DNA of 64,000 bases from a phage. A model generated the notes under the pieces. The model worked only from the letters and a program-made list of their open reading frames with translations. It had not been told where the DNA came from and did not search any database. The stretch is from NCBI GenBank assembly GCA_014686905.1, contig GCA_014686905.1_4093.1. One strand, given 5' to 3'. The translations under genes and the position numbers were made by a program. Positions 2 to 43,777 of this stretch are shown piece after piece. The stretch's first letter is position 1. Each line of letters begins with the position of its first letter.

Positions 2-454
2 CGTGAACTCCCACGTGTATTTGGTGCTGTACAAAAACACGTTCAAGCACGTAAGCGTGTACGTGATTTCAAAATTAACAGTACTTATCTGTTAGGTTCA
101 GGTCATGTGACATTCTTTTACGACAAGTTGCTGTACTTACAGAAGCGTCATATCGATATTGTTAACGAATGTTTGCGTCGTGGTATGAAGATTCAAAACA
201 CTGAAGTAAACGACATTAGCGGCTTCCCTGCTGAGTTTTGTAATGACTACGTACCAACGGAGTCAGAGATTAAAATGTCTCGTGATCGTTTGATTGAGAA
301 GCTCCAGATGAAGCCTACGTGGTATAAGTTTACTGATGTTGAATGTCCACAGTACGTTAAAGATATGCAGAACGTAAGTAGTAAGAACGAATCTAGTACT
401 GATATGTTCGACGAAATTGAAGAACAAATCAAAGATGAAATGAATAATTATTAA
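2..454 (+). CDS. denV: Pyrimidine-dimer DNA glycosylase (T4 endonuclease V / DenV-like), 5'-partial, with acidic C-terminal extension
   Basis: Frame open from window edge; translation [43 protein letters not shown]...KPTWYKF matches remembered T4 DenV core almost residue for residue; extra acidic C-terminal tail of about 35 aa. Confidence 0.8.
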
Positions 455-492
455 AGGAAAGGGTTGACTTCGGTTACACAAAGGAACATAAC

Positions 493-1156: not shown

Positions 1157-1204
1157 AAAGGGTTGACTTCGGTCAGCCCTTTTTGCTATAATTATTTCAT
1201 CAAC
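1157..1204 (+). terminator. composite hairpin terminator plus promoter (GGGTTGAC-TTCG-GTCAGCCC, T-run, TATAAT); left copy of 48-bp direct repeat
   Basis: 8-bp stem with UUCG loop followed by TTTTT; TTGACT inside the stem lies 18 bp upstream of TATAAT. Confidence 0.6.
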
Positions 1205-1218
1205 ACAAGAGGTAACAA

Positions 1219-1455
1219 ATGAAACTATCTTTTATACGATTAGCTGAATTCTTCGGTACTGATGTAATTACTTTACAACAAATTGCAGATAATACTTCAT
1301 TAAGTACACAAGAAGTACTTGACTTAGATGTAATTCAGTGCGATAATACTTCCATCGATTTCAAAGAAGGTCTTGTCGAAAAAGATAAGATTAAAGCTAA
1401 GATTAATGGTGCTGGGCGGGTTCAGTACTGGAAAGGAGTATTAAGTAATGTTTGA
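1219..1455 (+). CDS. hypothetical protein (inside repeat-flanked cassette)
   Basis: ORF with SD AGAGG upstream; overlaps start of next ORF. Confidence 0.5.
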   Translation: MKLSFIRLAEFFGTDVITLQQIADNTSLSTQEVLDLDVIQCDNTSIDFKEGLVEKDKIKAKINGAGRVQYWKGVLSNV

Positions 1456-2566
1456 ACAGTATTATTTAAATGAAGATGGTGAAAAAGTTTATTTTCATGA
1501 AGAACTTGGTATGCGTTTTGAATGGATGAAGCCTGAAGATATAAAAAGGGTTTCAAAAGGACTCACTGCTAAGGATCATGTTGATGACATAGAAGCAAAA
1601 TTAAAAAACAAAGATATTGACAATATTACTATTATTGGATTATCAGTTAAATCATCACGTGAGTTTGGTAAAAACGGAAATAGTAATAACAATTTACTGA
1701 TTATGTATAATGGGGTATTGTATGATAATTATAAAATAACTGGTTTAAAAACAAAGCTTGAAAAAATAACAAACAATAAATTCAAGCCATCATTTACCTA
1801 TACAGATGAAAATTATTATTACTATGTAACCAAATTGGGTTCTCTTGAGGAAAGAGGATGCTATATATATGAAAATGAACATTTAGACAATGGGATAATG
1901 TCATATATTAAATTCACATATTCCGATGGATTTACACAACCACGAAGAATAAATGATATAATTACAAAAACATCAATGAACGTTAGATATTTTATAACAC
2001 CTGAAATGCGTGAAACAATTGCTAACACACGCTGTAATGAACTAGGATATACATTAAAAGAAGTTTACAAGAAATCAAATGGTCGTTATTATGTAAAATA
2101 TATATGTGATAAAGGACACGAGTGTAATCAAGACTATTATGCGTTTACTAGTAAACAAGCACAAAAGTGTGGATGCTGTTCCCAATTAGAAACACACTCA
2201 TTTGGTCATAATGATTGTAAAGAGTTTTTGAGAGGAATGTTTGTTACTGAAAGAGAGAAAACATTTCCTGATTTAAAAAATAAATCAAAACTTCCATATG
2301 ATTTTTATATTCGTGATATTAATACGTTATTTGAATATGATGGTAGTAATCACTTTGAAGAACGTGAATCAGGATGGGGAAACGGACTTATGAGGAAAAA
2401 ACACGATAAAATCAAAACAGAATACGCAATAAAAAATGGATATAACTTCATTCGTATTGCGTATTATGAAGACCATATTGGAGCATTGAAATCTTTCCTT
2501 AAACTCATTGAAGAGAATCCAGGAAAGCAAATCGTGCAGATCTATGGTGAAGTACAAATTATCTAA
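1448..2566 (+). CDS. putative homing-endonuclease-like protein with C-terminal PD-(D/E)XK (Vsr/DUF559-like) nuclease motif
   Basis: C-terminal PYDFYI...LFEYDGSNHF...GYNFIRI resembles the D...E(x)DG..H...G(x)(x)(x)R pattern of Vsr/DUF559-type nucleases; Cys/His cluster upstream; AT-rich. Confidence 0.5.
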   Translation: MFEQYYLNEDGEKVYFHEELGMRFEWMKPEDIKRVSKGLTAKDHVDDIEAKLKNKDIDNITIIGLSVKSSREFGKNGNSNNNLLIMYNGVLYDNYKITGLKTKLEKITNNKFKPSFTYTDENYYYYVTKLGSLEERGCYIYENEHLDNGIMSYIKFTYSDGFTQPRRINDIITKTSMNVRYFITPEMRETIANTRCNELGYTLKEVYKKSNGRYYVKYICDKGHECNQDYYAFTSKQAQKCGCCSQLETHSFGHNDCKEFLRGMFVTEREKTFPDLKNKSKLPYDFYIRDINTLFEYDGSNHFEERESGWGNGLMRKKHDKIKTEYAIKNGYNFIRIAYYEDHIGALKSFLKLIEENPGKQIVQIYGEVQII

Positions 2567-2570
2567 AACA

Positions 2571-2618
2571 AAAGGGTTGACTTCGGTCAGCCCTTTTTGC
2601 TATAATTATTTCATCAAC
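2571..2618 (+). terminator. composite hairpin terminator plus promoter; right copy of 48-bp direct repeat
   Basis: Identical to 1157-1204. Confidence 0.6.
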
Positions 2619-2634: not shown

Positions 2635-3405
2635 ATGACCAGAGAAGCACGTAGCATTCAAATCCAGAAAAACTTCAACTCCATGATGGTTGCTCTTGAG
2701 TGTTTGCTCGACGATAGCAGTACTGTAAAAAGTATGGTTGTCAGTGGTGCTCCTGGTGTTGGTAAGACTTACACCCTGTCTAAACGCCTCCAGAAAGCTC
2801 ATGACGCAGCAGAATGGAACGTAGCTACTATCAGTGGTAAGATGACTACACTGGCTCTGTACGAAGTTCTGTACAAGAATCGTCACAGCACCAACGTGTT
2901 AGTACTGGATGATATGGACAGCATCTTTGATTCTGAAGACGGTATGAACCTGCTCAAAGCTGTTTTGGATAGTGGTAAGCGTACTGTATCTTATATGACT
3001 AGCTCTAAGTACTTGAGCACTAACGGCATTCCTAATAGCTTTGATTTTAATGGTCGCATCGTATTCATTACTAACAAAGATTTAGCGTTAGATGCTAAAG
3101 CTAAAACTAAAATGTCTGCTCATTATGCTGCTCTTATGTCTCGTTCTGTGTACGTGGATTTACAGATTCAGACTAAAAGTGATATCATGATTCATATTGA
3201 AAATGTAATGACTAAGACTAATATTCTTGCATCTAAAGGTGTTAACAGTAACGGCAGTAAAGCAATTCTGAACTGGATGTTAAAACATGAAGATAATCTT
3301 CGTGCACCATCCCTGCGTATGCCTTTGTTGATTTCAGCAGTATATAACAACAATCCGTATGATTGGGAAGAACAATGTGAAAACTTGTTCCTTGAGAAAA
3401 TCTAA
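2635..3405 (+). CDS. P-loop NTPase (AAA-like ATPase)
   Basis: Walker A GAPGVGKT and Walker B-like VLVLDDMD in translation. Confidence 0.7.
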   Translation: MTREARSIQIQKNFNSMMVALECLLDDSSTVKSMVVSGAPGVGKTYTLSKRLQKAHDAAEWNVATISGKMTTLALYEVLYKNRHSTNVLVLDDMDSIFDSEDGMNLLKAVLDSGKRTVSYMTSSKYLSTNGIPNSFDFNGRIVFITNKDLALDAKAKTKMSAHYAALMSRSVYVDLQIQTKSDIMIHIENVMTKTNILASKGVNSNGSKAILNWMLKHEDNLRAPSLRMPLLISAVYNNNPYDWEEQCENLFLEKI

Positions 3406-3472
3406 TTACATATGTTGACAGTACTACCATAGTGTAGTACTATAACTTAATATTCACCACCGGAGATACGAT

Positions 3473-3814
3473 ATGCTTGAGTTTTTTAATTCAGATACAA
3501 TGCTTGGTATCACGCTAATTTACATGTTTGTATTTTTGTGTTATCATTCAATTGTAATTAGTCTGTGGTATTTTAAAAGGAAAATTGTTTTTAAATTGTA
3601 TTCGGATGATAATGTAGTCTTAGTTTTATATAGTATTATCCAAGGTGGGTTTATTTTATTTGGTGTGATGACATATGCGATTTACATGTTACAAATTGAT
3701 AATACACCACACATTACACAATATCTTGTGTTTTCAGGTCTAATCGTGTGGTTGTTGGTGTGTAGCATATACTTTATTATTAAAGCTCGTGATAGAATTA
3801 AAGGGGATTTCTAA
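3473..3814 (+). CDS. small membrane protein, tandem paralog 1 of 8
   Basis: About 3 hydrophobic helices; WYFKRKIVFKLY motif; clear paralog of 3814-4152; stop/start overlap. Confidence 0.6.
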   Translation: MLEFFNSDTMLGITLIYMFVFLCYHSIVISLWYFKRKIVFKLYSDDNVVLVLYSIIQGGFILFGVMTYAIYMLQIDNTPHITQYLVFSGLIVWLLVCSIYFIIKARDRIKGDF

Positions 3815-4152
3815 TGTTAACATTCTTTAAGTCAGATACAATGCTTAGTATTACTTTGATTTATCTTTTTGGTTTTTTCTTTTATCATGCACTGGTTGTA
3901 GTACTATGGTATTTTAAAAAGAAAATTGTTTTTAAACTGTATCCAGTGAGGAATTCATCACTAGTTCTTTACACAATTGTTCAAGGTTTGTTTGCAATTG
4001 TTGGTCTTATGGCACACTTAATTTATTGTGCTAATCCTCACTTGAACTCAATCTCACAATATATTGTATTCTTTGGGTTGTTCATTTGGTTAGGTGTATA
4101 CTTAATCCATCTCATTATTCATGGTAGAGATAAAATTCGCGGAGACTTCTAA
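3814..4152 (+). CDS. small membrane protein, tandem paralog 2 of 8
   Basis: Near-identical architecture to 3473-3814 (MLxFFxSDTML...WYFKKKIVFKLY...RDxIxGDF). Confidence 0.6.
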   Translation: MLTFFKSDTMLSITLIYLFGFFFYHALVVVLWYFKKKIVFKLYPVRNSSLVLYTIVQGLFAIVGLMAHLIYCANPHLNSISQYIVFFGLFIWLGVYLIHLIIHGRDKIRGDF

Positions 4153-4499
4153 TGTTTGAAGCTTATCTTGAGTTTTTAAGGAGTAGTCCAGTTGCACATT
4201 CACTTGCAGGGATTATTCTAACAACTTATGTATCATTTTGGGTAGTTATGTTTCTAGGATGGTATTTTAAACGACAATTCTATAAACGTAATGGTGAAGA
4301 TTTTATGAATTCTGTCATTAATCAATCGTTGTTTGCATCAACATTGATTGCATGTATTGTAGCAACACTCACAGGAAAGGTACTACCAGCTTTTTCCGCA
4401 GTTTACGGCACACTTGGGATGATATGTTTAACTTTTATATTGACCATTAAAATTTGTTGTGTTATGATTGAACTTCGAAATAAGATACCGGAGGAATGA
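4152..4499 (+). CDS. small membrane protein, tandem paralog 3 of 8
   Basis: Hydrophobic; WYFKRQFYKR motif; ATGA overlap with neighbour. Confidence 0.55.
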   Translation: MFEAYLEFLRSSPVAHSLAGIILTTYVSFWVVMFLGWYFKRQFYKRNGEDFMNSVINQSLFASTLIACIVATLTGKVLPAFSAVYGTLGMICLTFILTIKICCVMIELRNKIPEE

Positions 4500-4834
4500 T
4501 GGAGTACTTTATTGATTTACTGCCGTGGTATATGAAAGTTAGTACCATGTACTATATTATTAGTGCTGGATTCTACTTTCTGATGTGGTTCTTTAAACGA
4601 CCAATTTCAGTATTCATCGCTGATAACATGCTGCAATTAAAATTACACGCATGGTTTGGTCTGGCGATGATTATGCCTATTATTCACTACTCAATGATTA
4701 GTAGAGGTTTCCGTTCTAATGGTGAACCAATTGTATTAGTATTCTATTGGGGTTCAACTATTGCATATGTAAGTTTGTTGTTGTTCCCAGTCGTTCATAA
4801 GTTACGTGCTAAAGTTCCTGATGCGAGGTACTAA
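4496..4834 (+). CDS. small membrane protein, tandem paralog 4 of 8
   Basis: Hydrophobic; WFFKRP motif; overlaps neighbours. Confidence 0.55.
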   Translation: MMEYFIDLLPWYMKVSTMYYIISAGFYFLMWFFKRPISVFIADNMLQLKLHAWFGLAMIMPIIHYSMISRGFRSNGEPIVLVFYWGSTIAYVSLLLFPVVHKLRAKVPDARY

Positions 4835-5148
4835 TGGATATAGTAACATTGATTTACACGTTGTATTCATTCTATTTCATTATGTGTTGGGTTGGATTTT
4901 TATTTGTACTCAAGATGTTTGATTATGTTGAAAAACAGATAAAAGAATTTTGTATTCCTTTTATCGGTTCAACCATTATTAGTGTTTCTTGTGTGTATTT
5001 TTTGGTTTTTGATCCACCAGATAACACTGCAATGATTGACTTGATGTTACTACCAACAACTGTTACTTTTTTATGTAGTCTGATGCCGCCGATTAGCCGT
5101 GGACTAACAGAATTTAGACGCAATCAAAAGCGTAAACGAGGGATGTAA
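4834..5148 (+). CDS. small membrane protein, tandem paralog 5 of 8
   Basis: Hydrophobic helices; same size class; abutting neighbours. Confidence 0.5.
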   Translation: MDIVTLIYTLYSFYFIMCWVGFLFVLKMFDYVEKQIKEFCIPFIGSTIISVSCVYFLVFDPPDNTAMIDLMLLPTTVTFLCSLMPPISRGLTEFRRNQKRKRGM

Positions 5149-5516
5149 TGGAAATTGCTCTTATTATCTTAACTGCTATGTTGTTTATTAGTACTGTGGT
5201 TATAATTGGTAAATTCTTTTGTGTATCATTTTTAGAAACGGTATACGATGAAATTGCTGATGATTATGAACTACAAGCCGGATTTTTCATTACGTATTGG
5301 CTTAGTTTATTTTGTCTAGTCATTGCTTGGATTTTACATATCTTTAAATGGGGTATGGTAGACGGTGATCCTATTATGGCAATTATTGTTCTAGTGTTTG
5401 GTATCCTTGGTGGTGCAGTGCATAATCTAATGGTTATCTGGCAAACTGTTCAATATGTTTTGGTTCCCTATTTCGAAAAGATGCACAGTACAATTAAAAA
5501 ACGTAAACGAGGTTAG
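5148..5516 (+). CDS. small membrane protein, tandem paralog 6 of 8
   Basis: Hydrophobic helices; basic C-terminus KKRKRG like neighbour. Confidence 0.5.
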   Translation: MEIALIILTAMLFISTVVIIGKFFCVSFLETVYDEIADDYELQAGFFITYWLSLFCLVIAWILHIFKWGMVDGDPIMAIIVLVFGILGGAVHNLMVIWQTVQYVLVPYFEKMHSTIKKRKRG

Positions 5517-5517
5517 T

Positions 5518-5880
5518 ATGAACGGGATAGAATTATCTTTCGTTGGTCAATTACTAGTAATGGCGTATACATTTATCTTCTCACTGAATGCATTCGTGTG
5601 CATTGGGAAGTACTTCCATAAGCGACCATTATCAAATATATATGATGTAATCCAAAAGAGATATAGTCCAGCATATACTGTGTTGGGTACAGTATTCAAT
5701 TTTGGTTTTATTGTATTAATAATTGGACTGTTCACATCCTCTTTGAATACAATAACCTTCGGTCTTATGATATGTTCATTGGTATTAGCCGTAATTATAT
5801 GTTGTTTAGTACTGCACCTTGTGGTACTATTGTATATAAAGATCTCTGAAATCCACCAACGTTTGGGTATGAGGAAATAA
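5518..5880 (+). CDS. small membrane protein, tandem paralog 7 of 8
   Basis: Start moved to ATG at 5518 (MNGIELSF) just after previous stop; hydrophobic. Confidence 0.5.
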   Translation: MNGIELSFVGQLLVMAYTFIFSLNAFVCIGKYFHKRPLSNIYDVIQKRYSPAYTVLGTVFNFGFIVLIIGLFTSSLNTITFGLMICSLVLAVIICCLVLHLVVLLYIKISEIHQRLGMRK

Positions 5881-5881
5881 T

Positions 5882-6253
5882 ATGAGTTACCGTGAGATAT
5901 TTTCCATTATTTCAATTATTATGTTCAGTACTGGAACACTGGTATGGTTATTATACTTCTTCTGTATTAATCCAGTGTATAATATGTTATGTAATATTAA
6001 ATCAAGTGCCGGATATATCACTTTTATGGTCTTTATGGGATATTATTGTCTAAGCATTTTAGGTGTTGTTTTGGTTGTTATATTTGATGTGGGACCAAAT
6101 AGTGATGGTATGGAAATACATGAATTAATAACCATGTTTGGATGTATGATACCAACAGCACTACTGTTTGTAGCTACTGGTAGTGGATTGATAAAATTAT
6201 ATAATTATTTAAAATCCATTCATAATTCCATTCATAATAAGCGTATGTCATAA
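5882..6253 (+). CDS. small membrane protein, tandem paralog 8 of 8
   Basis: Hydrophobic helices; followed by inverted repeat CCAGTACT...AGTACTGG. Confidence 0.5.
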   Translation: MSYREIFSIISIIMFSTGTLVWLLYFFCINPVYNMLCNIKSSAGYITFMVFMGYYCLSILGVVLVVIFDVGPNSDGMEIHELITMFGCMIPTALLFVATGSGLIKLYNYLKSIHNSIHNKRMS

Positions 6254-33924: not shown

Positions 33925-34071
33925 ATGAAAGCATCAAAAAAGAGTAATACTAAGAAAGCATGTTCACCTTTCGCTGGGGTATTCCCTTTACGTTTCGTTG
34001 ATGAAGTGGTTTCCTACCCGCCTGGCCTTACTCCTGAGATGGTAGAAAGTTTGCGTAAATCTAAAAAATAG
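33925..34071 (+). CDS. hypothetical small basic protein (48 aa)
   Basis: Start moved to MKASKKSN after leader hairpin and SD AAGGAA. Confidence 0.45.
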   Translation: MKASKKSNTKKACSPFAGVFPLRFVDEVVSYPPGLTPEMVESLRKSKK

Positions 34072-34152
34072 TACTTGCAATTAGTTTTTAAACGCGTATA
34101 ATGTTTTACATGAAGGGGAGAAATGATTCTCCCCAATAACAGGAGAAACAAA

Positions 34153-34305
34153 ATGAAACAATATAATGCTCGGTTTGATGTTACTATCGGTAACGGCAAA
34201 GGTCAATTCTCTTTCAGTACTCGCAAAAGTTATACAGAAAACTTCCTGCGTAATTGTGCACTGACCGCCGCTCAAATTAAACATTATTTTCAGGCTAAAA
34301 AATGA
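34153..34305 (+). CDS. hypothetical small protein (50 aa)
   Basis: Start moved to MKQYNARFD after SD AGGAGA; leader hairpin upstream. Confidence 0.45.
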   Translation: MKQYNARFDVTIGNGKGQFSFSTRKSYTENFLRNCALTAAQIKHYFQAKK

Positions 34306-34391
34306 AATCATTTGCTTACTATAGTTCTGCGGTGATCGGTGCATTGATCGCGGCGTTGTTAGTAACCTATCTATTCTTTATGGTGATTTAA
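34302..34391 (+). CDS. tiny membrane peptide (29 aa)
   Basis: ATGA overlap with upstream stop; single hydrophobic helix. Confidence 0.35.
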   Translation: MKSFAYYSSAVIGALIAALLVTYLFFMVI

Positions 34392-34535
34392 ATGAATCCA
34401 ACAGGCTTAAATTATAAAAGTTGTTCGGCGTTTACGAAAGCAAATAAAGCGAATGCACGTAAAGCGAAAGTACAGGAGTACATCAAGCAAGGCATGACGC
34501 GAAAGGCGGCGATTCTAAAAGCTAAAAATAAATGA
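34392..34535 (+). CDS. small basic protein (47 aa)
   Basis: Abuts previous stop; Lys/Ala-rich. Confidence 0.4.
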   Translation: MNPTGLNYKSCSAFTKANKANARKAKVQEYIKQGMTRKAAILKAKNK

Positions 34536-34537
34536 AA

Positions 34538-34575
34538 AAAGTGGTTGACTCCGGTCAGCCATTTTGCTATTATAT
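34538..34575 (+). terminator. composite hairpin terminator plus promoter (TGGTTGAC-TCCG-GTCAGCCA, TTTTGC, TATTAT)
   Basis: Same architecture as 1157-1204; recurs at 38211, 41480, 43738. Confidence 0.55.
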
Positions 34576-34599
34576 ATTCATTGAGAGATAGCTCACTAG

Positions 34600-34624
34600 C
34601 CCACAGGGTGCATAAGTGTATCTA
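34600..34624 (+). promoter_or_regulatory. conserved intergenic motif CCCACAGGGTGCATAAGTGTATCT
   Basis: Near-identical motif at 38269-38292, 41542-41565, 43797-43820; related copies near 36270 and 28810; reverse-orientation core near 30410 and 26727. Confidence 0.5.
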
Positions 34625-34745
34625 TTATATAAGTATTGAGTACTGAAAACTATTTTTAAAAAGTACTTGCAAACTATCTCAATAAGCGTATAATGTTTTA
34701 CATCGAAAGGGGAAACGGTTTCCCCTGGTAATAAGGAAACAAATC

Positions 34746-35087
34746 ATGACTATCTCAATTGCTCAATCTAACTTTGAAAATGAAATCATCGCCCAGGCAC
34801 TGCGTTTAAATGATGGTCGGGCCGAAATTAATTACGGTTTCAATTCAGGCGGTTGCGAAAACTATCAGTACTTTGTAACGGCTGATGGCGGTGTCCTGGG
34901 TATCAATACAGTTATTGTAAACATCCAAAAAATTAATTTCAATGATCCAGACGATAGCCAGTTTTACATCACTGGCGTAGACGTGAACTATGAGGATGAC
35001 TCACTAACTGATGATCACACTGGCGAGCGGTTAGAAAGTGCATACGGTGAAGATGATTATCAGTCCGGTCCAGAAGATTTCGAATAA
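34746..35087 (+). CDS. hypothetical acidic protein
   Basis: Promoter plus leader hairpin AGGGGAAACGGTTTCCCCT; SD AAGGAAAC. Confidence 0.6.
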   Translation: MTISIAQSNFENEIIAQALRLNDGRAEINYGFNSGGCENYQYFVTADGGVLGINTVIVNIQKINFNDPDDSQFYITGVDVNYEDDSLTDDHTGERLESAYGEDDYQSGPEDFE

Positions 35088-35182
35088 TATAAAAAATAGT
35101 TTGACAATAGATTATAGTACTGTATAATAGTTTACATCAAGGGGAGAAAAACTTCTCCCCACTAACAGAGAGAGAAAACAAA

Positions 35183-35395
35183 ATGGCTAATATCCGGTCG
35201 AAATTAAAAAATGCAAAACAAGTTTTATTTTCAGATCATGAATACTTTAATAAAGATATTACAGGAGTTACAAGTATCAAGGAAGTAAAAGAAAAAACCG
35301 GCGTTTTGTGTGATGTGCGATTAGTTGGAACATTTGGGAATAACGTGCTATATCGCTGCGGTGATTACAATTTTACACTGACTATCATTAACTAA
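35183..35395 (+). CDS. hypothetical early protein
   Basis: TTGACA promoter, leader hairpin GGGGAGAAAAACTTCTCCCC, SD AGAGAGAGAA. Confidence 0.55.
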   Translation: MANIRSKLKNAKQVLFSDHEYFNKDITGVTSIKEVKEKTGVLCDVRLVGTFGNNVLYRCGDYNFTLTIIN

Positions 35396-35407
35396 AAATA
35401 TTATCAC

Positions 35408-35446
35408 AGTACTATTGACATAGTTTGATAGTACTGACATAATAAC
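35408..35446 (+). promoter_or_regulatory. promoter module class 2 with flanking inverted repeat, copy 2 of 3
   Basis: AGTACTATTGACATAGTTTGATAGTACTGACATAATAAC. Confidence 0.55.
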
Positions 35447-35478
35447 TTTTATCAACTACACTACTAAGGAATTAAAAA

Positions 35479-35658
35479 ATGGCTATCATCGCAAAAACTG
35501 AAATCGTTGGTCTGGATTCTATCATCATGACGTTTGAAGATCAAAAAGGTATGTATGTAGTTTCCTATGGTGATTATGTTCGGGAGTATGAAACGGTAGA
35601 CGAAGCCTTTGAAAGTTATATTCGCCAGGTGAATAAAGCATACGATGACTACCGCTAA
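35479..35658 (+). CDS. hypothetical small protein (59 aa)
   Basis: SD AAGGAA; hand-translated MAIIAKTEIVGLDS... Confidence 0.45.
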   Translation: MAIIAKTEIVGLDSIIMTFEDQKGMYVVSYGDYVREYETVDEAFESYIRQVNKAYDDYR

Positions 35659-35757
35659 AATATATTACCAGTACTATTAAATCTATTGACAACGTTTGAT
35701 AGTACTGTATAATAAGTTTTATAAACAGTAGTTAACTTAACCTAAGAGAGAAACAAA

Positions 35758-35901
35758 ATGATCGCACTGGATTCATTCATCGACGCAGTACTGGCAAAAA
35801 CTGGCGAGGATCTGACCGCAGAACAATACGCGATGATCGAGCAATGTCAGCAAAACGGTAAATCGGTGAAAGATACTGTTAAGATTATCCGCAAGATGTA
35901 A
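35758..35901 (+). CDS. hypothetical small protein (47 aa)
   Basis: SD AAGAGAGAAAC; followed by hairpin. Confidence 0.45.
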   Translation: MIALDSFIDAVLAKTGEDLTAEQYAMIEQCQQNGKSVKDTVKIIRKM

Positions 35902-35907
35902 TATTAT

Positions 35908-35936
35908 AGCCCACTGGTTAACGCTGGTGGGCTTTA
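35908..35936 (+). terminator. terminator-like hairpin
   Basis: AGCCCAC-TGGTTAACGCTG-GTGGGCT, weak T tract. Confidence 0.45.
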
Positions 35937-36006
35937 ATCATTTACCCTATACAATGCCAGTACTAAACCGTTTATCTCATTAGAATGCGTTACAGGACGT
36001 TTAACA

Positions 36007-36204
36007 ATGATTAGCATGAAATCAGTACAAAAACAAATAGAAACATTATCAAAAATTAAACGTAAACAATACTCCTTAGAATATACAATCAATGGTAACT
36101 ATCATCTAATGAAAGAAAATAATTTTATAGTCATTGATGAATCATTGCAAATCATTAGTATAGTACTGAAAGCATTAATCAATGACAGAAAAAAATTAAA
36201 ATAA
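36007..36204 (+). CDS. hypothetical small protein
   Basis: 65-aa ORF; weak SD. Confidence 0.45.
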   Translation: MISMKSVQKQIETLSKIKRKQYSLEYTINGNYHLMKENNFIVIDESLQIISIVLKALINDRKKLK

Positions 36205-36295
36205 TTGTTGACATACAATGCCAGTACTGGCATAATACTTACATCAAGACGAGAACGTCACCAACCCATAGGGTGCACAAATGTAACTATATAAT

Positions 36296-36375
36296 ATCGA
36301 TCAATAAATGATCAAAAAAGTACTGGATCAATTTAGCATAAGGCGTATAATTCTGATCAATTCTTGATCAAAGGC
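36296..36375. repeat. cluster of five GATCAA (three as TGATCAA) repeats within 73 bp, overlapping a TATAAT box
   Basis: GATCAA at 36299, 36310, 36326, 36355, 36366. Confidence 0.55.
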
Positions 36376-36532
36376 AATAAACGTAGTTGAAATTATATAG
36401 AAAGTACAAAGGCGTTACCATTCGTGGTAATGCTGGGGAATATGTAGTATCATACGGTTTGAATAAAATCAGTACTAGTAGTATAATCGTAGCATTGCAG
36501 TACTATAGTATTTTTATAATGAGGTTAAAATA

Positions 36533-36790
36533 ATGGCTGTAGGATTTGCGAAGGACGGGGCCGAACAAGACGAGATTAACGCAGTGATTCAGGCCGCCGT
36601 AAACCACGCTAGAAAGCAAATTAACGCACAAATAGAATCACTGGTACATTGCCTCGACTGCGGCGATATAATCCCTGAGAAACGACGCCAGGCCGTTAAG
36701 GGATGTAAGTACTGCATAACTTGCCAGGAGGATCATGATAGTACTTTTAAACGTCCCCCGCGTAATTGTTGGCATAGATCTATGAGATAA
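36533..36790 (+). CDS. DksA/TraR-family C4 zinc-finger protein
   Basis: CLDCGDIIPEKRRQAVKGCKYCITC: two CxxC pairs with typical spacing, small size. Confidence 0.65.
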   Translation: MAVGFAKDGAEQDEINAVIQAAVNHARKQINAQIESLVHCLDCGDIIPEKRRQAVKGCKYCITCQEDHDSTFKRPPRNCWHRSMR

Positions 36791-36853
36791 AAAGTATTGA
36801 CAGTACTGAAAGATAGTGTATAATATTTTATATCTTAACTGAGGATTGAAATC

Positions 36854-37210
36854 ATGGGAATACAACATATCACGCGTACTACTGACAATGGCGAGATCAC
36901 TGGCTATCAAGTACAGGGCAAAGTAGCACAATTGCAGTACTGGTTTGTTAAACGTGGAATCATTGCACCGGATCTTGATTATGACCGTGTAGCGTTTATT
37001 GATTCTCTTTATGTTGATCCTGATAGTCGGGGCAATGGTGAAGGTAACGAATTAATGAATGCCTTTATTGATGCCGCCGATGATTCAGATTGTATCATTT
37101 TAGAATGCGATACAGGAGAAGATAACGCCTTCAATCTTAAAGAATGGTACGAAGGTTTCGGATTCGAGGTACTGATCGATAGTGAATATCCTATCATGAT
37201 TTTATCATAG
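36854..37210 (+). CDS. putative GNAT-type acetyltransferase-like protein
   Basis: LYVDPDSRGNGEGNELMNAF resembles the GNAT acetyl-CoA-binding loop; weak. Confidence 0.4.
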   Translation: MGIQHITRTTDNGEITGYQVQGKVAQLQYWFVKRGIIAPDLDYDRVAFIDSLYVDPDSRGNGEGNELMNAFIDAADDSDCIILECDTGEDNAFNLKEWYEGFGFEVLIDSEYPIMILS

Positions 37211-37288
37211 TACTTGCATTTAGTTTTCAGTACTGTTATAGTACTTACATCAAGGGGAAACATCTTCCCCTACTAAGAGGAAATAAAA

Positions 37289-37477
37289 ATGGAAAACTTA
37301 TCAAGTATTTTAGTACAAGATGATTTCGGTAATCCTGGAAGTGCTATCATTGTTCGGGGTAATAAAGCAACGTTTGTTATTGCTGGTGGACCTGTACAGC
37401 GTAGCATTAAAAATAATGCTGTTACCATTAATAATGTACGCTATCGCTTAGATAAAGAATTGATTCATAAACTTTAA
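37289..37477 (+). CDS. hypothetical early protein
   Basis: Promoter, leader hairpin GGGGAAACATCTTCCCC, SD AGAGGAAA. Confidence 0.55.
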   Translation: MENLSSILVQDDFGNPGSAIIVRGNKATFVIAGGPVQRSIKNNAVTINNVRYRLDKELIHKL

Positions 37478-37561
37478 AAAGTATTTGACAATAGATTATA
37501 GTACTGTATAATAAGTTACATGAAGGGGTGAAATGATTCTCCCCACTAAGAGGAAAGAAAA

Positions 37562-37774
37562 ATGCAAGGTCAACTAATCGTTCGTAAATGGTCTGATACT
37601 AACGAAAAACCGTGGGATGTACAATACATCGGACCGGATGGGGTATCACGTTATCAGCCTGGCGTAACGCATAGTACTGAGCAATTCGCAAACGCTCACC
37701 GCGAACGCCTGTTAGAATCCATGAAACAGGGATTCTGTGAAAAATTCATTCAAGATCATTGGCTGAAAGATTAA
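37562..37774 (+). CDS. hypothetical early protein
   Basis: TTGACA promoter, leader hairpin, SD AGAGGAAAG. Confidence 0.55.
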   Translation: MQGQLIVRKWSDTNEKPWDVQYIGPDGVSRYQPGVTHSTEQFANAHRERLLESMKQGFCEKFIQDHWLKD

Positions 37775-37791
37775 TATAAGGAGTACAGCTT

Positions 37792-37884
37792 ATGCAAATG
37801 AATCCGATGATTATTGTTTTAGCTGTACTTATGATCATTCATGCAATAGTAGAAGTATTAACGCAATCAGGAGTAATAAAATGA
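37792..37884 (+). CDS. tiny membrane peptide (30 aa)
   Basis: SD AAGGAG; single hydrophobic helix. Confidence 0.35.
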   Translation: MQMNPMIIVLAVLMIIHAIVEVLTQSGVIK

Positions 37885-38054
37885 TTCAAGTAGAATTATC
37901 AGTACTGAAAGATCTGTTTTATCGGTTAGGTACTACTGGCGAGTATCCTAAAAGTGATACCGCAAAACTTTTTGTATCACTCGACTTATGGCAACGCGAA
38001 CAATTAGTAATGTCCTGGCGTAAAGGTAAAGCAGATAGCGAGGTGAAAGCATGA
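37881..38054 (+). CDS. hypothetical small protein (57 aa)
   Basis: ATGA overlap with upstream peptide. Confidence 0.45.
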   Translation: MIQVELSVLKDLFYRLGTTGEYPKSDTAKLFVSLDLWQREQLVMSWRKGKADSEVKA

Positions 38055-38200
38055 AAGAATTCTTATTCGAAGTAGTGTTTCAAGGTGTCGGTAGTAACCA
38101 ACTGATTCGCTCAAGTGGTTACAATGTTAACCAGGCATGGAATAACATTAAACAAATGTACCCGAACGCTATCACCTATCGCAACCCGAAACAAGTTTAA
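38051..38200 (+). CDS. hypothetical small protein (49 aa)
   Basis: ATGA overlap; followed by composite terminator element. Confidence 0.45.
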   Translation: MKEFLFEVVFQGVGSNQLIRSSGYNVNQAWNNIKQMYPNAITYRNPKQV

Positions 38201-38210
38201 AAATAATTGA

Positions 38211-38250
38211 AAAAGGGATTGACTCCGGTCAGTCCCTTTGCTATTATATA
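38211..38250 (+). terminator. composite hairpin terminator plus promoter (GGGATTGAC-TCCG-GTCAGTCCC, TATTAT)
   Basis: Same architecture as 1157-1204. Confidence 0.55.
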
Positions 38251-38372
38251 CGCATAGAAACAAATCAGCCCACAGGGTGCATAAATGTATCTATTGTTTG
38301 CTGGTGGCTAGTACTGAAAACTATTTTTAAAAAAGTACTTGCATTGTACTTAGAATCAAGTATAATGTTTTA

Positions 38373-38450
38373 CATCAGGACGGGGAACGAAACAAGTAAC
38401 CCCGTTAAGTAGTCCAGGAGTAAGACATAAGAAAACCTCCCCTGATAAAA
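38373..38450 (+). ncRNA. candidate small structured RNA / leader element between tandem promoters (copy 2)
   Basis: Near-identical to 29019-29096; bracketed by two promoters. Confidence 0.3.
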
Positions 38451-38515
38451 TAGTTTGACAATAGAAAGTAAACGAGTATAATACTTACATCAACCACTGA
38501 TAAGGAAACATTAAA

Positions 38516-38791
38516 ATGCGGATTCTACTGACAGCTAACGAAATCGAACAAGTACTGACTACTAACCTGGAAGACTGGAAACGTGAAGCAGATATCCAGG
38601 CGGTTCAACGGCTTAACGATGAGTTAACGCCGGATGACTTAAGCAAGATTGTAGATCCTCAATTCTACGAAGATATCCACGACACCGCGTTAAGCGTCGA
38701 GGATGTACTAGATAAGCACTACATTGATATTGATTTGCAGGTTTACGGTCGTAAAAACTTTATCACTATTCACGACATTTACAATAATTAA
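38516..38791 (+). CDS. hypothetical acidic protein
   Basis: SD AAGGAAAC; 91-aa ORF. Confidence 0.6.
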   Translation: MRILLTANEIEQVLTTNLEDWKREADIQAVQRLNDELTPDDLSKIVDPQFYEDIHDTALSVEDVLDKHYIDIDLQVYGRKNFITIHDIYNN

Positions 38792-38877
38792 GTATTGACA
38801 AAGTATCTTAGTACTGTATAATAGTTTACATCGAGAGGGGGAATGGTTCCCCTCCTAACAAAGAGAGAGAAATAAAA

Positions 38878-39060
38878 ATGGCTAAATGCACTATCTGTAA
38901 GAAAGAAATCGTATTAGTTCCAAGTGCCCGTGAACGTGCCGCTCGGTTCGGTGGCAAACCGTCAGACTATACAAAAATGTTTACTGTCCATGCAGCTTGC
39001 CAGGTAGCAAAACGTTCACAAGAAAGCGTAGAATTAATGCGTAAACTTTCCAAAAAATAA
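38878..39060 (+). CDS. hypothetical small basic protein
   Basis: TTGACA promoter, leader hairpin GAGGGGGAATGGTTCCCCTCC, SD AGAGAGAGA. Confidence 0.55.
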   Translation: MAKCTICKKEIVLVPSARERAARFGGKPSDYTKMFTVHAACQVAKRSQESVELMRKLSKK

Positions 39061-39148
39061 GTATTGACAAAGTATCTTAGTACTGTATAATAGTTTACAT
39101 CAAGTGAGGGGAAACGGTTCCCCTCCTAACAAAGAGAGAGAAATAAAA

Positions 39149-39472
39149 ATGGCTATGATCCTTGCCCAGAAAGTAGAACTGAAAATTGTAACCTCCTTTG
39201 ACATTAAAGTTAATCGGTGGACTGATTCACACGGCAATACTTACCACTCTTGCTACGTGTCTGCGTTAATTGGTGATCGTTGGGAAGACCTGGGACATGA
39301 AACCTTTACATACGGTTACGGCACACAAGGCGAATACACGGGCTTGGAGATCATTAAAGAAACCGTTATAGGTTTCAACCCGAAAGAAAAAGTTATTCAC
39401 CGCATCGAAAAAGAGATTAACAAAGAAATAACAGTTCGATACAACGATGTAAAACGTAAGAAAGACATGTAA
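39149..39472 (+). CDS. hypothetical protein; paralog of 32748-33071
   Basis: Start moved to MAMILAQK; shared RWTDSHGNTYHSC...TFTYGY...VKRKKD; promoter plus leader duplicated from the 38878 unit. Confidence 0.65.
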   Translation: MAMILAQKVELKIVTSFDIKVNRWTDSHGNTYHSCYVSALIGDRWEDLGHETFTYGYGTQGEYTGLEIIKETVIGFNPKEKVIHRIEKEINKEITVRYNDVKRKKDM

Positions 39473-39567
39473 TAGAATCCATTTAAAGTACTATTTGACA
39501 TTGCCCAGATAGTACTTTATAATAGACTCTAACTTGTAGTACTAACTCAACTAATAGGATGTATACC

Positions 39568-39963
39568 ATGATTACTAAATTCTACGCTACCCGTGAAGCT
39601 GCCCGTATTGTTGCACGCGAGGAAGGAGCAGCATTTAAAGACATGGGCAAAGATGCACCGAAAGGTCAACGCTGGGCCGTACAGTTCAAAGAAATCTCTG
39701 ATATCGTGAATTCACCGGAGCCAGTACTAACAGCAGCAGAACTAAAACGAGCGGATTTACTGGCGGCAGTACTTAACGCACAAGATGAATTTATCGCTGA
39801 TTCTGATATCAAAGTACAGACAAACCATACCGCTTGGACTCACGCGGATCACCTGGCAAACCTTAAGCGTCCAAGTGAACTGGTACGCAACCAGAAAGAG
39901 ATCCGACACGACCGTAAGGGTAATCGTGTAACAGTATACAGTAAACGCCGCCAGGTTATCTAA
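39568..39963 (+). CDS. hypothetical protein; paralog of 28151-28417
   Basis: MITKFYATREAARIV...DRKGNRVTVYSKRR. Confidence 0.6.
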   Translation: MITKFYATREAARIVAREEGAAFKDMGKDAPKGQRWAVQFKEISDIVNSPEPVLTAAELKRADLLAAVLNAQDEFIADSDIKVQTNHTAWTHADHLANLKRPSELVRNQKEIRHDRKGNRVTVYSKRRQVI

Positions 39964-39985
39964 TAACTTGCAGTACTAACAACAC

Positions 39986-40010
39986 GGCGGGATCAGTTCC
40001 CGCCTTTTTT
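39986..40010 (+). terminator. intrinsic terminator
   Basis: GGCGGGA-TCAGT-TCCCGCC followed by TTTTTT. Confidence 0.7.
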
Positions 40011-40025
40011 ATAGGATAAACTAAA

Positions 40026-40280
40026 ATGATTAAGGTACAACTATCTAAAGATAATATCTTGCGGGTACACTATAAAGCACCACAGAGAATCATCACAAAG
40101 GCCGTACAGCTTGCTAATGAGTTTATTAATGGTAACCTATTACCAAGGAAGTTAAGCAACGGAAAACTGCGTGTAATCGATGTAGACACTAACAACAGAA
40201 TAGTAATAGAGAACACAGGAAAGATAAACCTTTATGAACATCAACAATATAATAAGAAAATAAAACTAATATCACGTTGA
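40026..40280 (+). CDS. hypothetical protein
   Basis: 84-aa ORF; SD-like AGGATAAAC. Confidence 0.5.
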   Translation: MIKVQLSKDNILRVHYKAPQRIITKAVQLANEFINGNLLPRKLSNGKLRVIDVDTNNRIVIENTGKINLYEHQQYNKKIKLISR

Positions 40281-40333
40281 CAGTACTCAATTGTTTTAGT
40301 ATTATGTACACATACCAACACGGGAGAAACAAA

Positions 40334-40552
40334 ATGAAATTATCTAAAATCGAAAAGAAAACTATTGATGAAGCAGTTAAGCACGGTTATACCTTTCGTA
40401 ATGATTCACATTTTACCAATTTTCAACAAGGCCAAAGGACTATTAAAAAACTAATTGACAAAGGTTTATTAGTTAAAGTAGATAACGGTAACGGCATTGA
40501 GTATCAGCCAACCCAAGACGCATTATCTTTAAAGAAATATGCAATTATCTAA
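40334..40552 (+). CDS. hypothetical protein
   Basis: Start moved to MKLSKIEKK after SD GGGAGAAAC; promoter TTGACAGTACTCAATTGTTTTAGTATTATGTACA duplicated before next gene. Confidence 0.5.
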   Translation: MKLSKIEKKTIDEAVKHGYTFRNDSHFTNFQQGQRTIKKLIDKGLLVKVDNGNGIEYQPTQDALSLKKYAII

Positions 40553-40609
40553 TTGACAGTACTCAAATGTTTTAGTACTATATGTACATACCAACACGGG
40601 GGAAACAAA

Positions 40610-40852
40610 ATGATTACTTTAGAAAAACGTATCAAAGAAACTACATCGCTGGTGGAACTGTTAACAGTACTGAAATGTAAAACAACACCATTCAGCACGC
40701 CGGACTTTATTAATATGGTTGATGTTAATGGTCGCTATCGTATCACGGTCGAACAAGGAGCGGCGAAAGTATTCAGTACTAAAAACACTAAGGAAGTGAT
40801 CCACGCCGTTAATGTTAAAAAAGTAGTTGCAATTGATAGTAAAGTACTGTAA
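40610..40852 (+). CDS. hypothetical protein
   Basis: Start moved to MITLEKRIKE after SD GGGGGAAAC; duplicated promoter block. Confidence 0.5.
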   Translation: MITLEKRIKETTSLVELLTVLKCKTTPFSTPDFINMVDVNGRYRITVEQGAAKVFSTKNTKEVIHAVNVKKVVAIDSKVL

Positions 40853-40883
40853 TATAGTTTCATTAACTCAAGGAGAACATGCA

Positions 40884-41468: not shown

Positions 41469-41479
41469 AAAAGATTAAA

Positions 41480-41517
41480 AAAGGGATTGACTTCGGTCAG
41501 TCCCTTTGCTATTATAT
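41480..41517 (+). terminator. composite hairpin terminator plus promoter
   Basis: GGGATTGAC-TTCG-GTCAGTCCC, TTTGC, TATTAT. Confidence 0.55.
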
Positions 41518-41691
41518 ATTCATTGAGAGATAGCTCACTGACCCACAGGGTGCATAAATGTATCTATTATATAAGTATTCAGTACTGAAAACTATTTTTA
41601 AAAAAGTACTTGCATTGTACTTAGAATCAAGTATAATGTTTTATATCGAGAGGGGGAAATGGTTCTCCCTCAAAGAATAAGGAATAAAATC

Positions 41692-41913: not shown

Positions 41914-41997
41914 GTATTGACAAAGTATCTTAGTACTGTATAATAGTTTACATCAAGGGGAGAATAGTTCTCCCCGATACTAAAAGGAAACAAAATT

Positions 41998-42458: not shown

Positions 42459-42544
42459 AAAGTACTTGCATTGTAGTTAGATTAACGTATAATGTTTTAC
42501 ATAGAGCGGGGGAATAGTTCTCCCGCCAGTCCAGGAGATACACC

Positions 42545-42808: not shown

Positions 42809-42875
42809 TAACTAAAACAAAGTATAATGTTTTGCATAGGGGGAGATATCCTCCCCCACTAAAAGGAGTAATAAA

Positions 42876-43100: not shown

Positions 43101-43113
43101 AAGTTTTATTTCA

Positions 43114-43737: not shown

Positions 43738-43777
43738 AAAAAGGGATTGACTCCGGTCAGTCCCTTTGCTATTATAT
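43738..43777 (+). terminator. composite hairpin terminator plus promoter
   Basis: GGGATTGAC-TCCG-GTCAGTCCC, TTTGC, TATTAT. Confidence 0.55.

What the first reader, a model, noticed from the sequence alone, without database searches (positions are those of the whole stretch)
1157..2618. Nuclease-containing cassette bracketed by 48-bp perfect direct repeats
Identical 48-bp elements (a terminator hairpin with UUCG loop fused to a TTGACT/TATAAT promoter) lie at 1157-1204 and 2571-2618. They flank an unusually AT-rich segment encoding a 372-aa protein with a C-terminal PD-(D/E)XK-like motif (PYDFYI...EYDGSNHF...GYNFIRI, Vsr/DUF559-like). This is the signature of a free-standing homing-endonuclease insertion that duplicated or landed in an intergenic regulatory element.
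Basis: partly seen in the sequence, partly recalled or inferred. Interest (0 to 1): 0.6.

Follow-up and report, generated by a model that had tools for sequence, protein, structure and literature searches.

The report
Homing-nuclease gene module between repeated terminator-promoter cassettes
In this giant E. coli phage, two identical copies of a 48-base terminator-plus-promoter signal bracket a small conserved gene and a selfish-looking DNA-cutting enzyme gene; the repeats are the phage's ordinary multi-copy regulatory cassettes, which let gene modules be swapped in and out, and they are not scars of the nuclease's insertion.

Summary
A 48-nt exact direct repeat (1157-1204, 2571-2618) brackets a 78-aa ORF and a 372-aa ORF. 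Each copy is an 11-bp UUCG hairpin whose 5' arm holds the -35 box TTGACT of an extended -10 promoter. The window is an Asteriusvirus jumbo phage (G17/121Q/PBECO4 group).

The interpretation needs correcting:
- **The repeat is not generated by insertion.** It is a multi-copy regulatory cassette. A third copy lies upstream of denV, four diverged copies lie at 34.5-43.7 kb, and near-identical elements occur in KVP40-type phages. It matches the published PeSL elements of T4-type phages.
- **The repeats bracket a two-gene module.** SP27 and UE-S1 carry one element and no module. Salmonella phage SD-15_S21 keeps both repeats and the 78-aa gene but has no nuclease.
- **The nuclease slot turns over on its own.** At least ten different nuclease alleles sit directly after the 78-aa gene in relatives.
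- **Identity breakpoints support two nested exchange units.** One is element to element (against G17). The other is the nuclease gene alone (against JP4).

Verdict: a new member of known kinds, of moderate interest.

The parts
1157..1204 (+). Left copy of the 48-nt composite terminator/promoter (PeSL-like). Hairpin 1157-1182 (AAAGGGTTGAC-TTCG-GTCAGCCCTTT), -35 TTGACT 1163-1168 inside the 5' arm, extended -10 TGCTATAAT 1184-1192. It ends the 119-aa gene transcript and restarts transcription for the 78-aa/nuclease pair (function inferred).
   Evidence: stem covariation in 27 distinct copies
1219..1455 (+). 78-aa conserved small protein gene (phrog_34150, function unknown). It is the constant upstream partner of the nuclease slot, and its stop overlaps the nuclease start codon.
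1448..2566 (+). 372-aa free-standing homing-endonuclease-like gene. N-terminal beta-rich region (1-96), a low-confidence middle part, a Cys-containing zinc-ribbon-like module (about 185-245; C220, C241, C244 conserved), and a C-terminal Vsr-like nuclease domain (about 246-372).
2183..2566 (+). Region coding the Vsr-like (EDxHD-type) PD-(D/E)XK nuclease domain. D285, E296, D298, H302, D320 and K323 are conserved across the family.
2571..2618 (+). Right copy of the 48-nt terminator/promoter. It ends the nuclease transcript and drives the downstream AAA-ATPase gene (2635-3405) (function inferred).
453..479 (+). Degraded half-copy of the same element (5' arm, loop and -35 only) between denV and the 64-aa ORF. 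It is conserved in relatives.
   Evidence: (D3)
34537..34575 (+). Diverged copy of the hairpin-embedded promoter (stem carries compensatory changes).
38211..38249 (+). Diverged copy of the hairpin-embedded promoter.
   Evidence: (D7)
41479..41517 (+). Diverged copy of the hairpin-embedded promoter.
   Evidence: (D7)
43739..43777 (+). Diverged copy of the hairpin-embedded promoter.
   Evidence: (D7)

Best explanation
The two 48-nt repeats are copies of a multi-copy composite regulatory cassette. Each is an intrinsic-terminator hairpin whose 5' arm carries the -35 box of a sigma-70 extended -10 promoter. This is the same kind of element as the PeSL (promoter-early stem-loop) of T4-type phages.

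The repeats insulate a two-gene transcription unit:
- a conserved 78-aa gene;
- translationally coupled to it, a free-standing homing-endonuclease-like gene. Its product pairs variable N-terminal (zinc-ribbon-type) DNA-binding modules with a C-terminal Vsr-like (EDxHD-type) nuclease.

Two nested processes explain the variation among relatives:
1. Homologous recombination between the flanking repeats, or between repeats of co-infecting phages, deletes, inserts or exchanges the whole module and leaves one repeat at empty sites.
2. The nuclease gene alone is gained, lost or replaced in the slot between the last codons of the 78-aa gene and the right-hand repeat. This most likely happens by double-strand-break-driven homing or recombination.

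Shown here: the repeat, the hairpin and promoter consensus, stem covariation, the nuclease fold, the site polymorphisms and the identity breakpoints.
Inferred: terminator and promoter activity, nuclease activity and target, homing, and the direction of the events.
For: **The repeat is a regulatory element**
- Exact 48-nt repeat, with 0 expected by chance.
- Stable UUCG hairpin, z = -6.6, and an 11/12 extended -10 promoter.
- Across 27 distinct copies, 95.3% of stem cells pair. Three pairs show compensatory double changes, in 8 cells against 1.1 in shuffles.

**It is multi-copy**
- A third copy lies upstream of denV in G17, 121Q, SP27 and others.
- Four diverged copies lie at 34.5-43.7 kb.
- L017 has six copies in 6.4 kb.
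- There are 485 matching places in 165 phage records.
- The KVP40 and D482 elements share the hairpin, and KVP40 also shares the post -10 TTCATCAAC. They fit the published nt-1/KVP40 PeSL consensus A3-4G3-loop-C3T3-4 (PMC4122927).

**Site states in relatives**
- One element and no module: SP27 and UE-S1.
- Both elements and the 78-aa gene only: SD-15_S21.
- 78-aa gene plus one of many nuclease alleles.
- This mirrors the RB49 ORF192 / phi1 single-PeSL case (PMC2839356).

**Identity breakpoints**
- Window vs G17: 2 differences in about 1450 nt between the elements. There are 12 differences in the 105 nt just to the left, and differences resume at 2607 inside the right element.
- Window vs JP4: the nuclease gene is 99.8% identical and the 78-aa gene 94.2%.
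- SP27's single element joins the G17 left-copy marker to the right-copy flank.

**Nuclease fold**
-.
- The family has 882 members, some named Vsr endonuclease by JGI.
Against: - No experiment shows termination, promoter activity, cleavage or homing.
- The terminator scan did not list the hairpin. Its T-run is partly paired with the A-run.
- Sequence-only evidence for Vsr membership is weak: DUF559 best E = 0.008 in 3 of 16 homologues, AbaSI E = 0.37, and hhalign against Vsr was not significant.
- The direction of the SP27/UE-S1 event (deletion or insertion) is inferred from parsimony. The chimeric-element argument rests on a single nucleotide.
- The host is not a T4-type phage, so 'PeSL' is used by analogy and sequence similarity.
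- Similarity to the KVP40 elements could be convergent.
- Every nuclease allele is tightly coupled to the 78-aa gene. That could mean a functional pair and not a purely selfish gene.
Confidence: 0.8

Rival explanations
1. A free-standing homing endonuclease gene inserted into a single intergenic terminator/promoter and duplicated it, so the 48-nt repeats are the footprint of that insertion.
For: Empty sites with exactly one copy of the element exist (SP27, UE-S1). The size difference is exactly one repeat plus the insert (1414 bp). The gene has a homing-endonuclease-type nuclease fold.
Against: - SD-15_S21 has both repeats with no nuclease.
- L011 has the same 78-aa plus nuclease pair without repeats.
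- A third near-identical copy upstream of denV, and other copies, are not linked to insertions.
- Homing by double-strand-break repair copies donor sequence and does not create 48-nt target duplications (established knowledge of homing).
- Nuclease-only exchange has its left breakpoint at the end of the 78-aa gene, not at the left repeat.
Confidence: 0.07
2. The bracketed segment is a transposon-like or integrase-borne element, and the 48-nt repeats are a target-site duplication or attachment sites.
For: Direct repeats flank the segment and a single copy sits at the empty site.
Against: - No transposase or integrase is present. The two ORFs are a 78-aa protein with no family hit and a Vsr-like nuclease.
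- There are no terminal inverted repeats.
- 48 nt is far longer than usual target duplications.
- The repeat is a functional-looking terminator/promoter present at many other intergenic sites and in other phages.
Confidence: 0.02
3. The 78-aa protein and the nuclease form a functional two-protein unit kept by the phage. Examples would be a nuclease for competition between phages or host DNA attack, with the small protein as regulator, specificity factor or immunity factor. The nuclease would then not be merely a selfish homing gene. The repeats still act as regulatory cassettes.
For: - In all nine nuclease alleles whose junction was read, the ATG overlaps the last codons of the 78-aa gene.
- The pair stays linked in distant relatives even where the flanks differ (L011, L015).
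- The C-terminal nuclease domain is strongly conserved while the N-termini are shuffled.
Against: - The 78-aa gene exists without a nuclease (SD-15_S21 and sister phages).
- Unrelated nuclease types (487 aa, phrog_681; 628 aa) occupy the same slot.
- E9.1 carries a split, presumably decaying allele.
- There are no PADLOC hits.
- Low GC and higher identity than the flanks point to horizontal spread.
Confidence: 0.15

Closest known systems
PeSLs (promoter-early stem-loops) of T4-type phages: RB49/phi1, PST/T4, nt-1/KVP40 (Arbiol et al. 2010, PMC2839356; Comeau et al. 2014, PMC4122927)
   Same: - A composite stem-loop terminator plus sigma-70-like promoter, followed by a Shine-Dalgarno sequence and ATG.
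- Many copies in intergenic spaces of variable regions.
- Copies flank ORFs that are missing in close relatives, where a single copy remains.
- The stem matches the nt-1/KVP40 consensus A3-4G3-loop-C3T3-4.
- A KVP40 intergenic element is 81% identical over 48 nt and shares hairpin, -10 and TTCATCAAC.
   Different: - The host is an Asteriusvirus jumbo phage, not a T4-type phage.
- The -35 box lies inside the 5' arm of the hairpin, so terminator and promoter overlap instead of lying side by side.
- Mini-circle formation was not tested.
- I found no paper describing such elements in this phage group. The library covers open-access papers only.
EDxHD (Vsr-like) homing endonucleases: I-Bth0305I (PDB 3R3P) and the free-standing phage Hef type (Taylor et al. 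2011, PMC3239194)
- Conserved Asp/His/Asp positions in the same order as Vsr D51/H69/D97.
- Bipartite layout with N-terminal DNA-binding modules.
- The family includes free-standing phage genes.
   Different: - The N-terminus has zinc-ribbon/treble-clef-type modules (CapR, DUF4379 or DUF723 in homologues) instead of NUMOD/HTH motifs.
- The gene is free-standing, not intron-encoded.
- It has an extra conserved C-terminal beta-hairpin (KQIVQIYGEVQI).
- Cleavage site and activity are unknown.
Free-standing homing endonuclease genes of T4 (seg and mob genes; intronless homing)
   Same: - Lies between conserved genes.
- Presence/absence polymorphism among close relatives.
- AT-rich.
- Expression depends on neighbouring signals.
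- Different nuclease genes can replace one another at one locus, as SegH/Hef replace mobC/mobE (cited in PMC3239194; details from my own knowledge).
   Different: The catalytic family differs (Vsr-like, not GIY-YIG or HNH). Homing and co-conversion are inferred here only from identity patterns.
Vsr mismatch endonuclease / DUF559 proteins
   Different: Sequence similarity is marginal. No Vsr zinc site is evident. The domain is fused to long DNA-binding N-terminal regions, and the gene context is a mobile phage gene, not a repair gene.

Membership tests
PeSL-type regulatory cassette | Composite of a stem-loop (terminator) and a sigma-70-like promoter, followed by SD and ATG | tested here: met
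   Hairpin -18.6 kcal/mol, z = -6.6. TTGACT-18-TATAAT with TG. GAGG plus ATG 15-17 nt downstream. Stem covariation.
PeSL-type regulatory cassette | Many similar copies in intergenic spaces, concentrated in variable regions | tested here: met
   Window: 2 exact copies, 1 half copy and 4 diverged copies, plus a copy upstream of denV in relatives. Six copies in 6.4 kb of L017. 4-7 places per Asteriusvirus genome at BLAST sensitivity.
PeSL-type regulatory cassette | Copies flank indels between close relatives, with a single (chimeric) copy at the empty site | tested here: met
   SP27 and UE-S1 carry a single copy. Identity breakpoints fall at the elements. SP27's copy is chimeric at one marker.
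PeSL-type regulatory cassette | Sequence fits a published PeSL consensus (nt-1/KVP40: A3-4G3-loop-C3T3-4; TTGYVH-N17-TAWWAT) | tested here: inconclusive
   The stem AAAGGG...CCCTTT and the -10 TATAAT fit. The spacer is 18, not 17. The -35 TTGACT does not fit TTGYVH at the fifth position (C is excluded by V). The -35 also lies inside the stem. A KVP40 element is 81% identical.
PeSL-type regulatory cassette | Occurs in T4-type (Straboviridae) phages | tested here: not met
   The window is an Asteriusvirus. This would extend the host range of the element type and is not a mechanistic criterion.
PeSL-type regulatory cassette | Recombination between copies produces excised mini-circles during infection | not testable with these tools
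   Needs inverse PCR or long-read data from infected cells (method in PMC2839356).
EDxHD / Vsr-like homing endonuclease | Catalytic domain with the Vsr-type PD-(D/E)XK fold | tested here: met
EDxHD / Vsr-like homing endonuclease | Conserved catalytic residues E, D, H, D | tested here: inconclusive
   D285, H302 and D320 are invariant in 44 diverse homologues, and E296 and D298 nearly so. Their order fits Vsr D51/H64/H69/D97 and I-Bth0305I D196/N208/H213/D222. The first Glu (E248 or E270) is unresolved.
EDxHD / Vsr-like homing endonuclease | Separate N-terminal DNA-binding region | tested here: inconclusive
   Homologues carry CapR, DUF4379 or DUF723 zinc-ribbon modules. The window protein itself has only a sub-threshold CapR hit (E 0.24) and conserved Cys residues. 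Model confidence there is moderate.
EDxHD / Vsr-like homing endonuclease | Mobile: present or absent at a fixed site among close relatives, with signs of horizontal spread | tested here: met
   The nuclease-less allele SD-15_S21. At least ten alleles at the same slot. The nuclease gene is 99.8% identical where the 78-aa gene is 94.2%. GC 29.2%.
EDxHD / Vsr-like homing endonuclease | Site-specific double-strand cleavage of the nuclease-less allele, followed by homing | not testable with these tools
   Needs biochemistry and phage crosses.
Transposon / insertion with target-site duplication | Encoded transposase or integrase, and terminal inverted repeats or att sites | tested here: not met
   No such gene. 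No inverted repeats at the ends.

The most novel reading that the evidence does not exclude
The slot directly after the conserved 78-aa gene may be a dedicated, translationally coupled 'landing pad'. There a constant Vsr-like nuclease domain is recombined with interchangeable N-terminal DNA-binding modules. At least ten alleles were seen, plus unrelated nuclease types. Under this reading the 78-aa protein and the nuclease form a diversifying two-protein weapon or immunity unit used between competing jumbo phages, and the PeSL-type cassettes serve as its exchange arms. Those cassettes are shared with KVP40-type T4 phages down to the transcribed leader, which would point to horizontal movement of regulatory cassettes between phage families.
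Probability: 0.15. Interest if true: 0.6.

Novelty: new member of a known kind. Interest (0 to 1): 0.35.

Why it matters
- **Where the elements occur.** Composite terminator-promoter cassettes were described as drivers of modular shuffling in T4-type phages. This locus shows they also operate in an unrelated group of 350-kb jumbo coliphages, with an almost identical sequence.
- **A documented example.** The locus shows all three states (empty, small gene only, small gene plus nuclease). Identity breakpoints fall on the cassettes.
- **Annotation.** The 372-aa 'hypothetical protein' (or 'HNH endonuclease') of G17-like phages is a Vsr-like (EDxHD-type) homing endonuclease. The 48-nt repeats should be read as regulatory signals, not as insertion scars.
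- **Phage therapy.** Such loci explain much of the small-scale variation between otherwise near-identical isolates.
- **Scope.** None of this changes a major concept.

Tried and rejected
- **Pfam and NCBIfam on the 372-aa protein.** Nothing significant: CapR E 0.24, LicT E 0.023.
- **PDB sequence searches.** The single protein found nothing. Two profiles gave only chance-level hits, though the AbaSI Vsr-like domain at E 0.37 is suggestive.
- **Full-length structure model.** Only moderate quality (pLDDT 70.6). Its Foldseek search was noisy, with 1vsr at E 0.11. The domain-only model resolved the fold.
- **hhalign of the family profile against Vsr.** Not significant.
- **The PHROG label 'HNH endonuclease' (phrog_559).** Rejected as a name. 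No HNH motif is present, and the fold is Vsr-like.
- **Target-site duplication or transposon reading.** Rejected: no recombinase, no inverted repeats, and the element is multi-copy.
- **Defence-system reading.** No PADLOC hits for either protein.
- **Rfam.** No family anywhere in the window.
- **tRNA scan.** None found. The conserved leaders after the 34-44 kb copies are not tRNAs.
- **Literature search for these elements in Asteriusvirus.** Nothing specific found.
- **The search of protein representatives** was not used, because it was not needed.
Full report
**What is there.** Positions 1157-1204 and 2571-2618 are identical over 48 nt, and the match runs to 56 nt at 95%. A 36-nt core occurs exactly twice in the window, with none expected in shuffles. 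Each copy reads AAAGGGTTGAC-TTCG-GTCAGCCCTTT followed by TTGCTATAAT. As RNA it forms an 11-bp hairpin with a UUCG loop (-18.6 kcal/mol, z = -6.6). TTGACT in the 5' arm of the stem lies 18 nt upstream of TATAAT, which is preceded by TG, giving 11 of 12 matches to the consensus. Between the copies lie two ORFs, not one. A 78-aa ORF occupies 1219-1455 and the 372-aa ORF occupies 1448-2566. The start of the second overlaps the stop of the first (AGTAATGTTTGA). The nuclease gene is 29.2% GC, against 35.3% for the window, which puts it in the lowest 2.2% of equal-sized windows.

**Where the window comes from.** Megablast places it in the Asteriusvirus jumbo coliphages (G17, Sharanji, JP4, 121Q, PBECO4, SP27 and others). 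G17 and Sharanji have the same layout. G17's annotators marked the hairpins as terminators.

**The nuclease.**
- Pfam and NCBIfam find nothing significant in the 372-aa protein.
- PHROGs place it in nuclease families: phrog_559 at 7e-24, phrog_9084 'homing endonuclease' at 4e-16, and phrog_7140 'intron encoded nuclease'.
- Homologues share a strongly conserved C-terminal domain of about 125 aa. D285, E296, D298, H302, D320 and K323 are invariant or nearly so. A profile of that domain finds 882 proteins, several named very-short-patch-repair endonuclease by JGI. Most of these carry an N-terminal DUF723, DUF4379 or CapR zinc-ribbon module.
- A domain-only AlphaFold model is confident (pLDDT 89.6, pTM 0.83).
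- The conserved Asp, His and Asp residues follow the order of the Vsr and I-Bth0305I catalytic residues described by Taylor et al. (PMC3239194). Residue-by-residue equivalence is inferred, because the hhalign run was not significant.
The closest named family is the EDxHD homing endonucleases, which already include free-standing phage genes of the Hef type.

**The repeats are generic regulatory cassettes.**
- A third near-identical copy sits upstream of denV in all relatives. By homology this is just left of window position 1.
- A degraded half-copy lies at 453-479.
- Four diverged copies with the same architecture lie at 34537, 38211, 41479 and 43739.
- In more distant relatives the copies are again intergenic and evolve in concert within a genome. 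Both copies in L016 carry a GAAA loop. L017 has six copies in 6.4 kb with an AAAAGG/CCTTTT stem.
- Over 27 distinct copies, 95.3% of stem cells pair. Three pairs show compensatory double changes, more than in any control.
- BLAST finds the element at 485 places in 165 phage records. These include KVP40-type Vibrio phages. D482 has the identical 26-nt hairpin, and KVP40 shares the hairpin, the -10 box and the following TTCATCAAC.
- This matches the published description of PeSLs. Those are composite terminator/promoter motifs, with the nt-1/KVP40 consensus A3-4G3-loop-C3T3-4, that flank indels between close relatives (PMC4122927; PMC2839356).

**States of the site in relatives.**

| State | Phages / loci |
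|---|---|
| One element, no module | SP27, UE-S1 |
| Two elements around the 78-aa gene only; the ORF runs into the right element (…AGTA\|AAAAAAGGGTTGAC…) | Salmonella phage SD-15_S21 and sisters |
| 78-aa gene plus a nuclease gene | window/G17/Sharanji/JP4 (372 aa), vB_Ec-M-J (371 aa), L011 (375 aa), PBECO4 (379 aa), L015 (363 aa), EJP2 (365 aa), L016 (438 aa), L018 (444 aa), L017 (466 aa), 121Q/UB (487 aa, phrog_681), slurp01 (628 aa), E9.1 (628-type split into 449 + 193 aa) |

- In nine alleles whose junction I read, the nuclease ATG follows AGTA at the end of the 78-aa gene.
- PBECO4's protein is a chimera. Its N-terminus resembles the 372-aa protein and its C-terminus resembles the 487-aa protein.
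- The 78-aa family has only 30 members, all from such phages.
- L011 carries the 78-aa plus 375-aa pair directly after denV, with no hairpin-promoter element on either side.

**Exchange units.**
- Window vs G17: the stretch between the elements has 2 differences in about 1450 nt. The last 105 nt of the 119-aa gene have 12 differences, and differences resume at 2607 inside the right element. The module has therefore been exchanged element to element.
- Window vs JP4: the nuclease gene is 99.8% identical, but the 78-aa gene is only 94.2% identical. Its allele is closer to slurp01's. The nuclease gene has therefore moved by itself.
- SP27's right flank is 99.9% identical to JP4's. Its single element joins G17's left-copy marker (TATAATT) to the right-copy flank. 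This is what a left-by-right crossover would produce, although only one nucleotide is informative.
- The 78-aa gene is conserved at this locus down to 62% identity in distant relatives. I therefore read SP27 and UE-S1 as deletions and not as ancestral empty sites. This is an inference.

**Mechanism proposed.** The left element stops transcripts from the 119-aa gene and starts the 78-aa/nuclease transcript. The nuclease is translated by coupling to the 78-aa gene. The right element stops that transcript and starts the AAA-ATPase gene. Recombination between the 48-nt copies, within one genome or between co-infecting genomes, deletes, inserts or swaps the module. The nuclease presumably cuts nuclease-less alleles near the 78-aa gene/right-element junction and is copied in during repair. 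Recombination within the shared 5' and 3' ends of the nuclease genes produces mosaic alleles. Terminator, promoter, cleavage and homing are all inferred.

**Rivals.** Duplication of the element by the nuclease insertion is contradicted by SD-15_S21, by L011 and by the extra copies. A transposon with a target duplication is excluded by gene content and by the multi-copy nature of the element. A functional 78-aa/nuclease pair cannot be excluded and is the most interesting open reading.

**Novelty.** Both components are known kinds: PeSL-type cassettes and Vsr-like free-standing homing endonucleases. JP4's record already labels the gene 'homing endonuclease'. What is new is their occurrence and interplay in Asteriusvirus, the -35-inside-the-hairpin layout, and the richly polymorphic nuclease slot. 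I found no paper describing this, but the searched library is limited to open-access papers.

Noticed in passing
window 34000-46000: A dense array of repeated regulatory cassettes between small ORFs. There are 11 copies of TTGACA-N17-TATAAT promoters, each followed by a GGGGAGAA...TTCTCCCC stem-loop and an SD (RB49-type promoter-then-stem-loop layout). There are also 5-6 copies of a different upstream box, AAAAAGTACTTGCA, with GTATAATG and the same stem-loop, possibly a second promoter class. The region looks like a hyperplastic region.
   Followed up: partly
window 34575-34625, 38249-38300, 41517-41570, 43777-43830: Each of the four diverged hairpin-promoter copies is followed by a conserved leader of about 50 nt (…GCCCACAGGGTGCATAAATGTATC…). 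It is not a tRNA and matches no Rfam family. It could be a conserved 5' UTR or a small RNA.
   Followed up: no
window 3473-6253: A run of eight tandem, head-to-tail ORFs of about 104-141 aa that encode hydrophobic, membrane-like proteins. Several are paralogous (3482-3601 vs 3823-3942, 78% identical at DNA level). Relatives differ in copy number; slurp01 and E9.1 lack the first one.
   Followed up: no
window 453-479: A half-copy of the 48-nt element (5' arm, loop and -35 only) between denV and the 64-aa ORF. It is conserved in at least six relatives and resembles the 'degraded 1/2 PeSLs' of Comeau et al. 2014.
   Followed up: partly
L003 (JP4) 1654-2381: JP4 has an extra 203-aa ORF with no family hit. 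It is inserted exactly at the 5' edge of the left element (…GAATAACAT|…). As a result the 119-aa gene is no longer followed by a hairpin.
   Followed up: partly
L011 3552-4529 (minus strand): In a metagenomic relative, a second nuclease-like gene on the opposite strand (325 aa, DUF4379 zinc finger plus a weak DUF5889 hit) and an 89-aa ORF lie between the 375-aa nuclease gene and the AAA-ATPase gene.
   Followed up: no
L007 (E9.1) 2948-4911: The 628-aa slurp01-type nuclease gene is split into 449-aa and 193-aa ORFs in E9.1. This is probably a decaying allele or a sequencing frameshift inside its internal repeats.
   Followed up: no
window 2635-3405: The gene downstream of the module encodes a 256-aa P-loop AAA-type ATPase. 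It has weak hits to AAA_16, AAA_22 and STAND NTPase models and very weak PADLOC hits. It is conserved in all relatives as the right-hand neighbour of the site.
   Followed up: no
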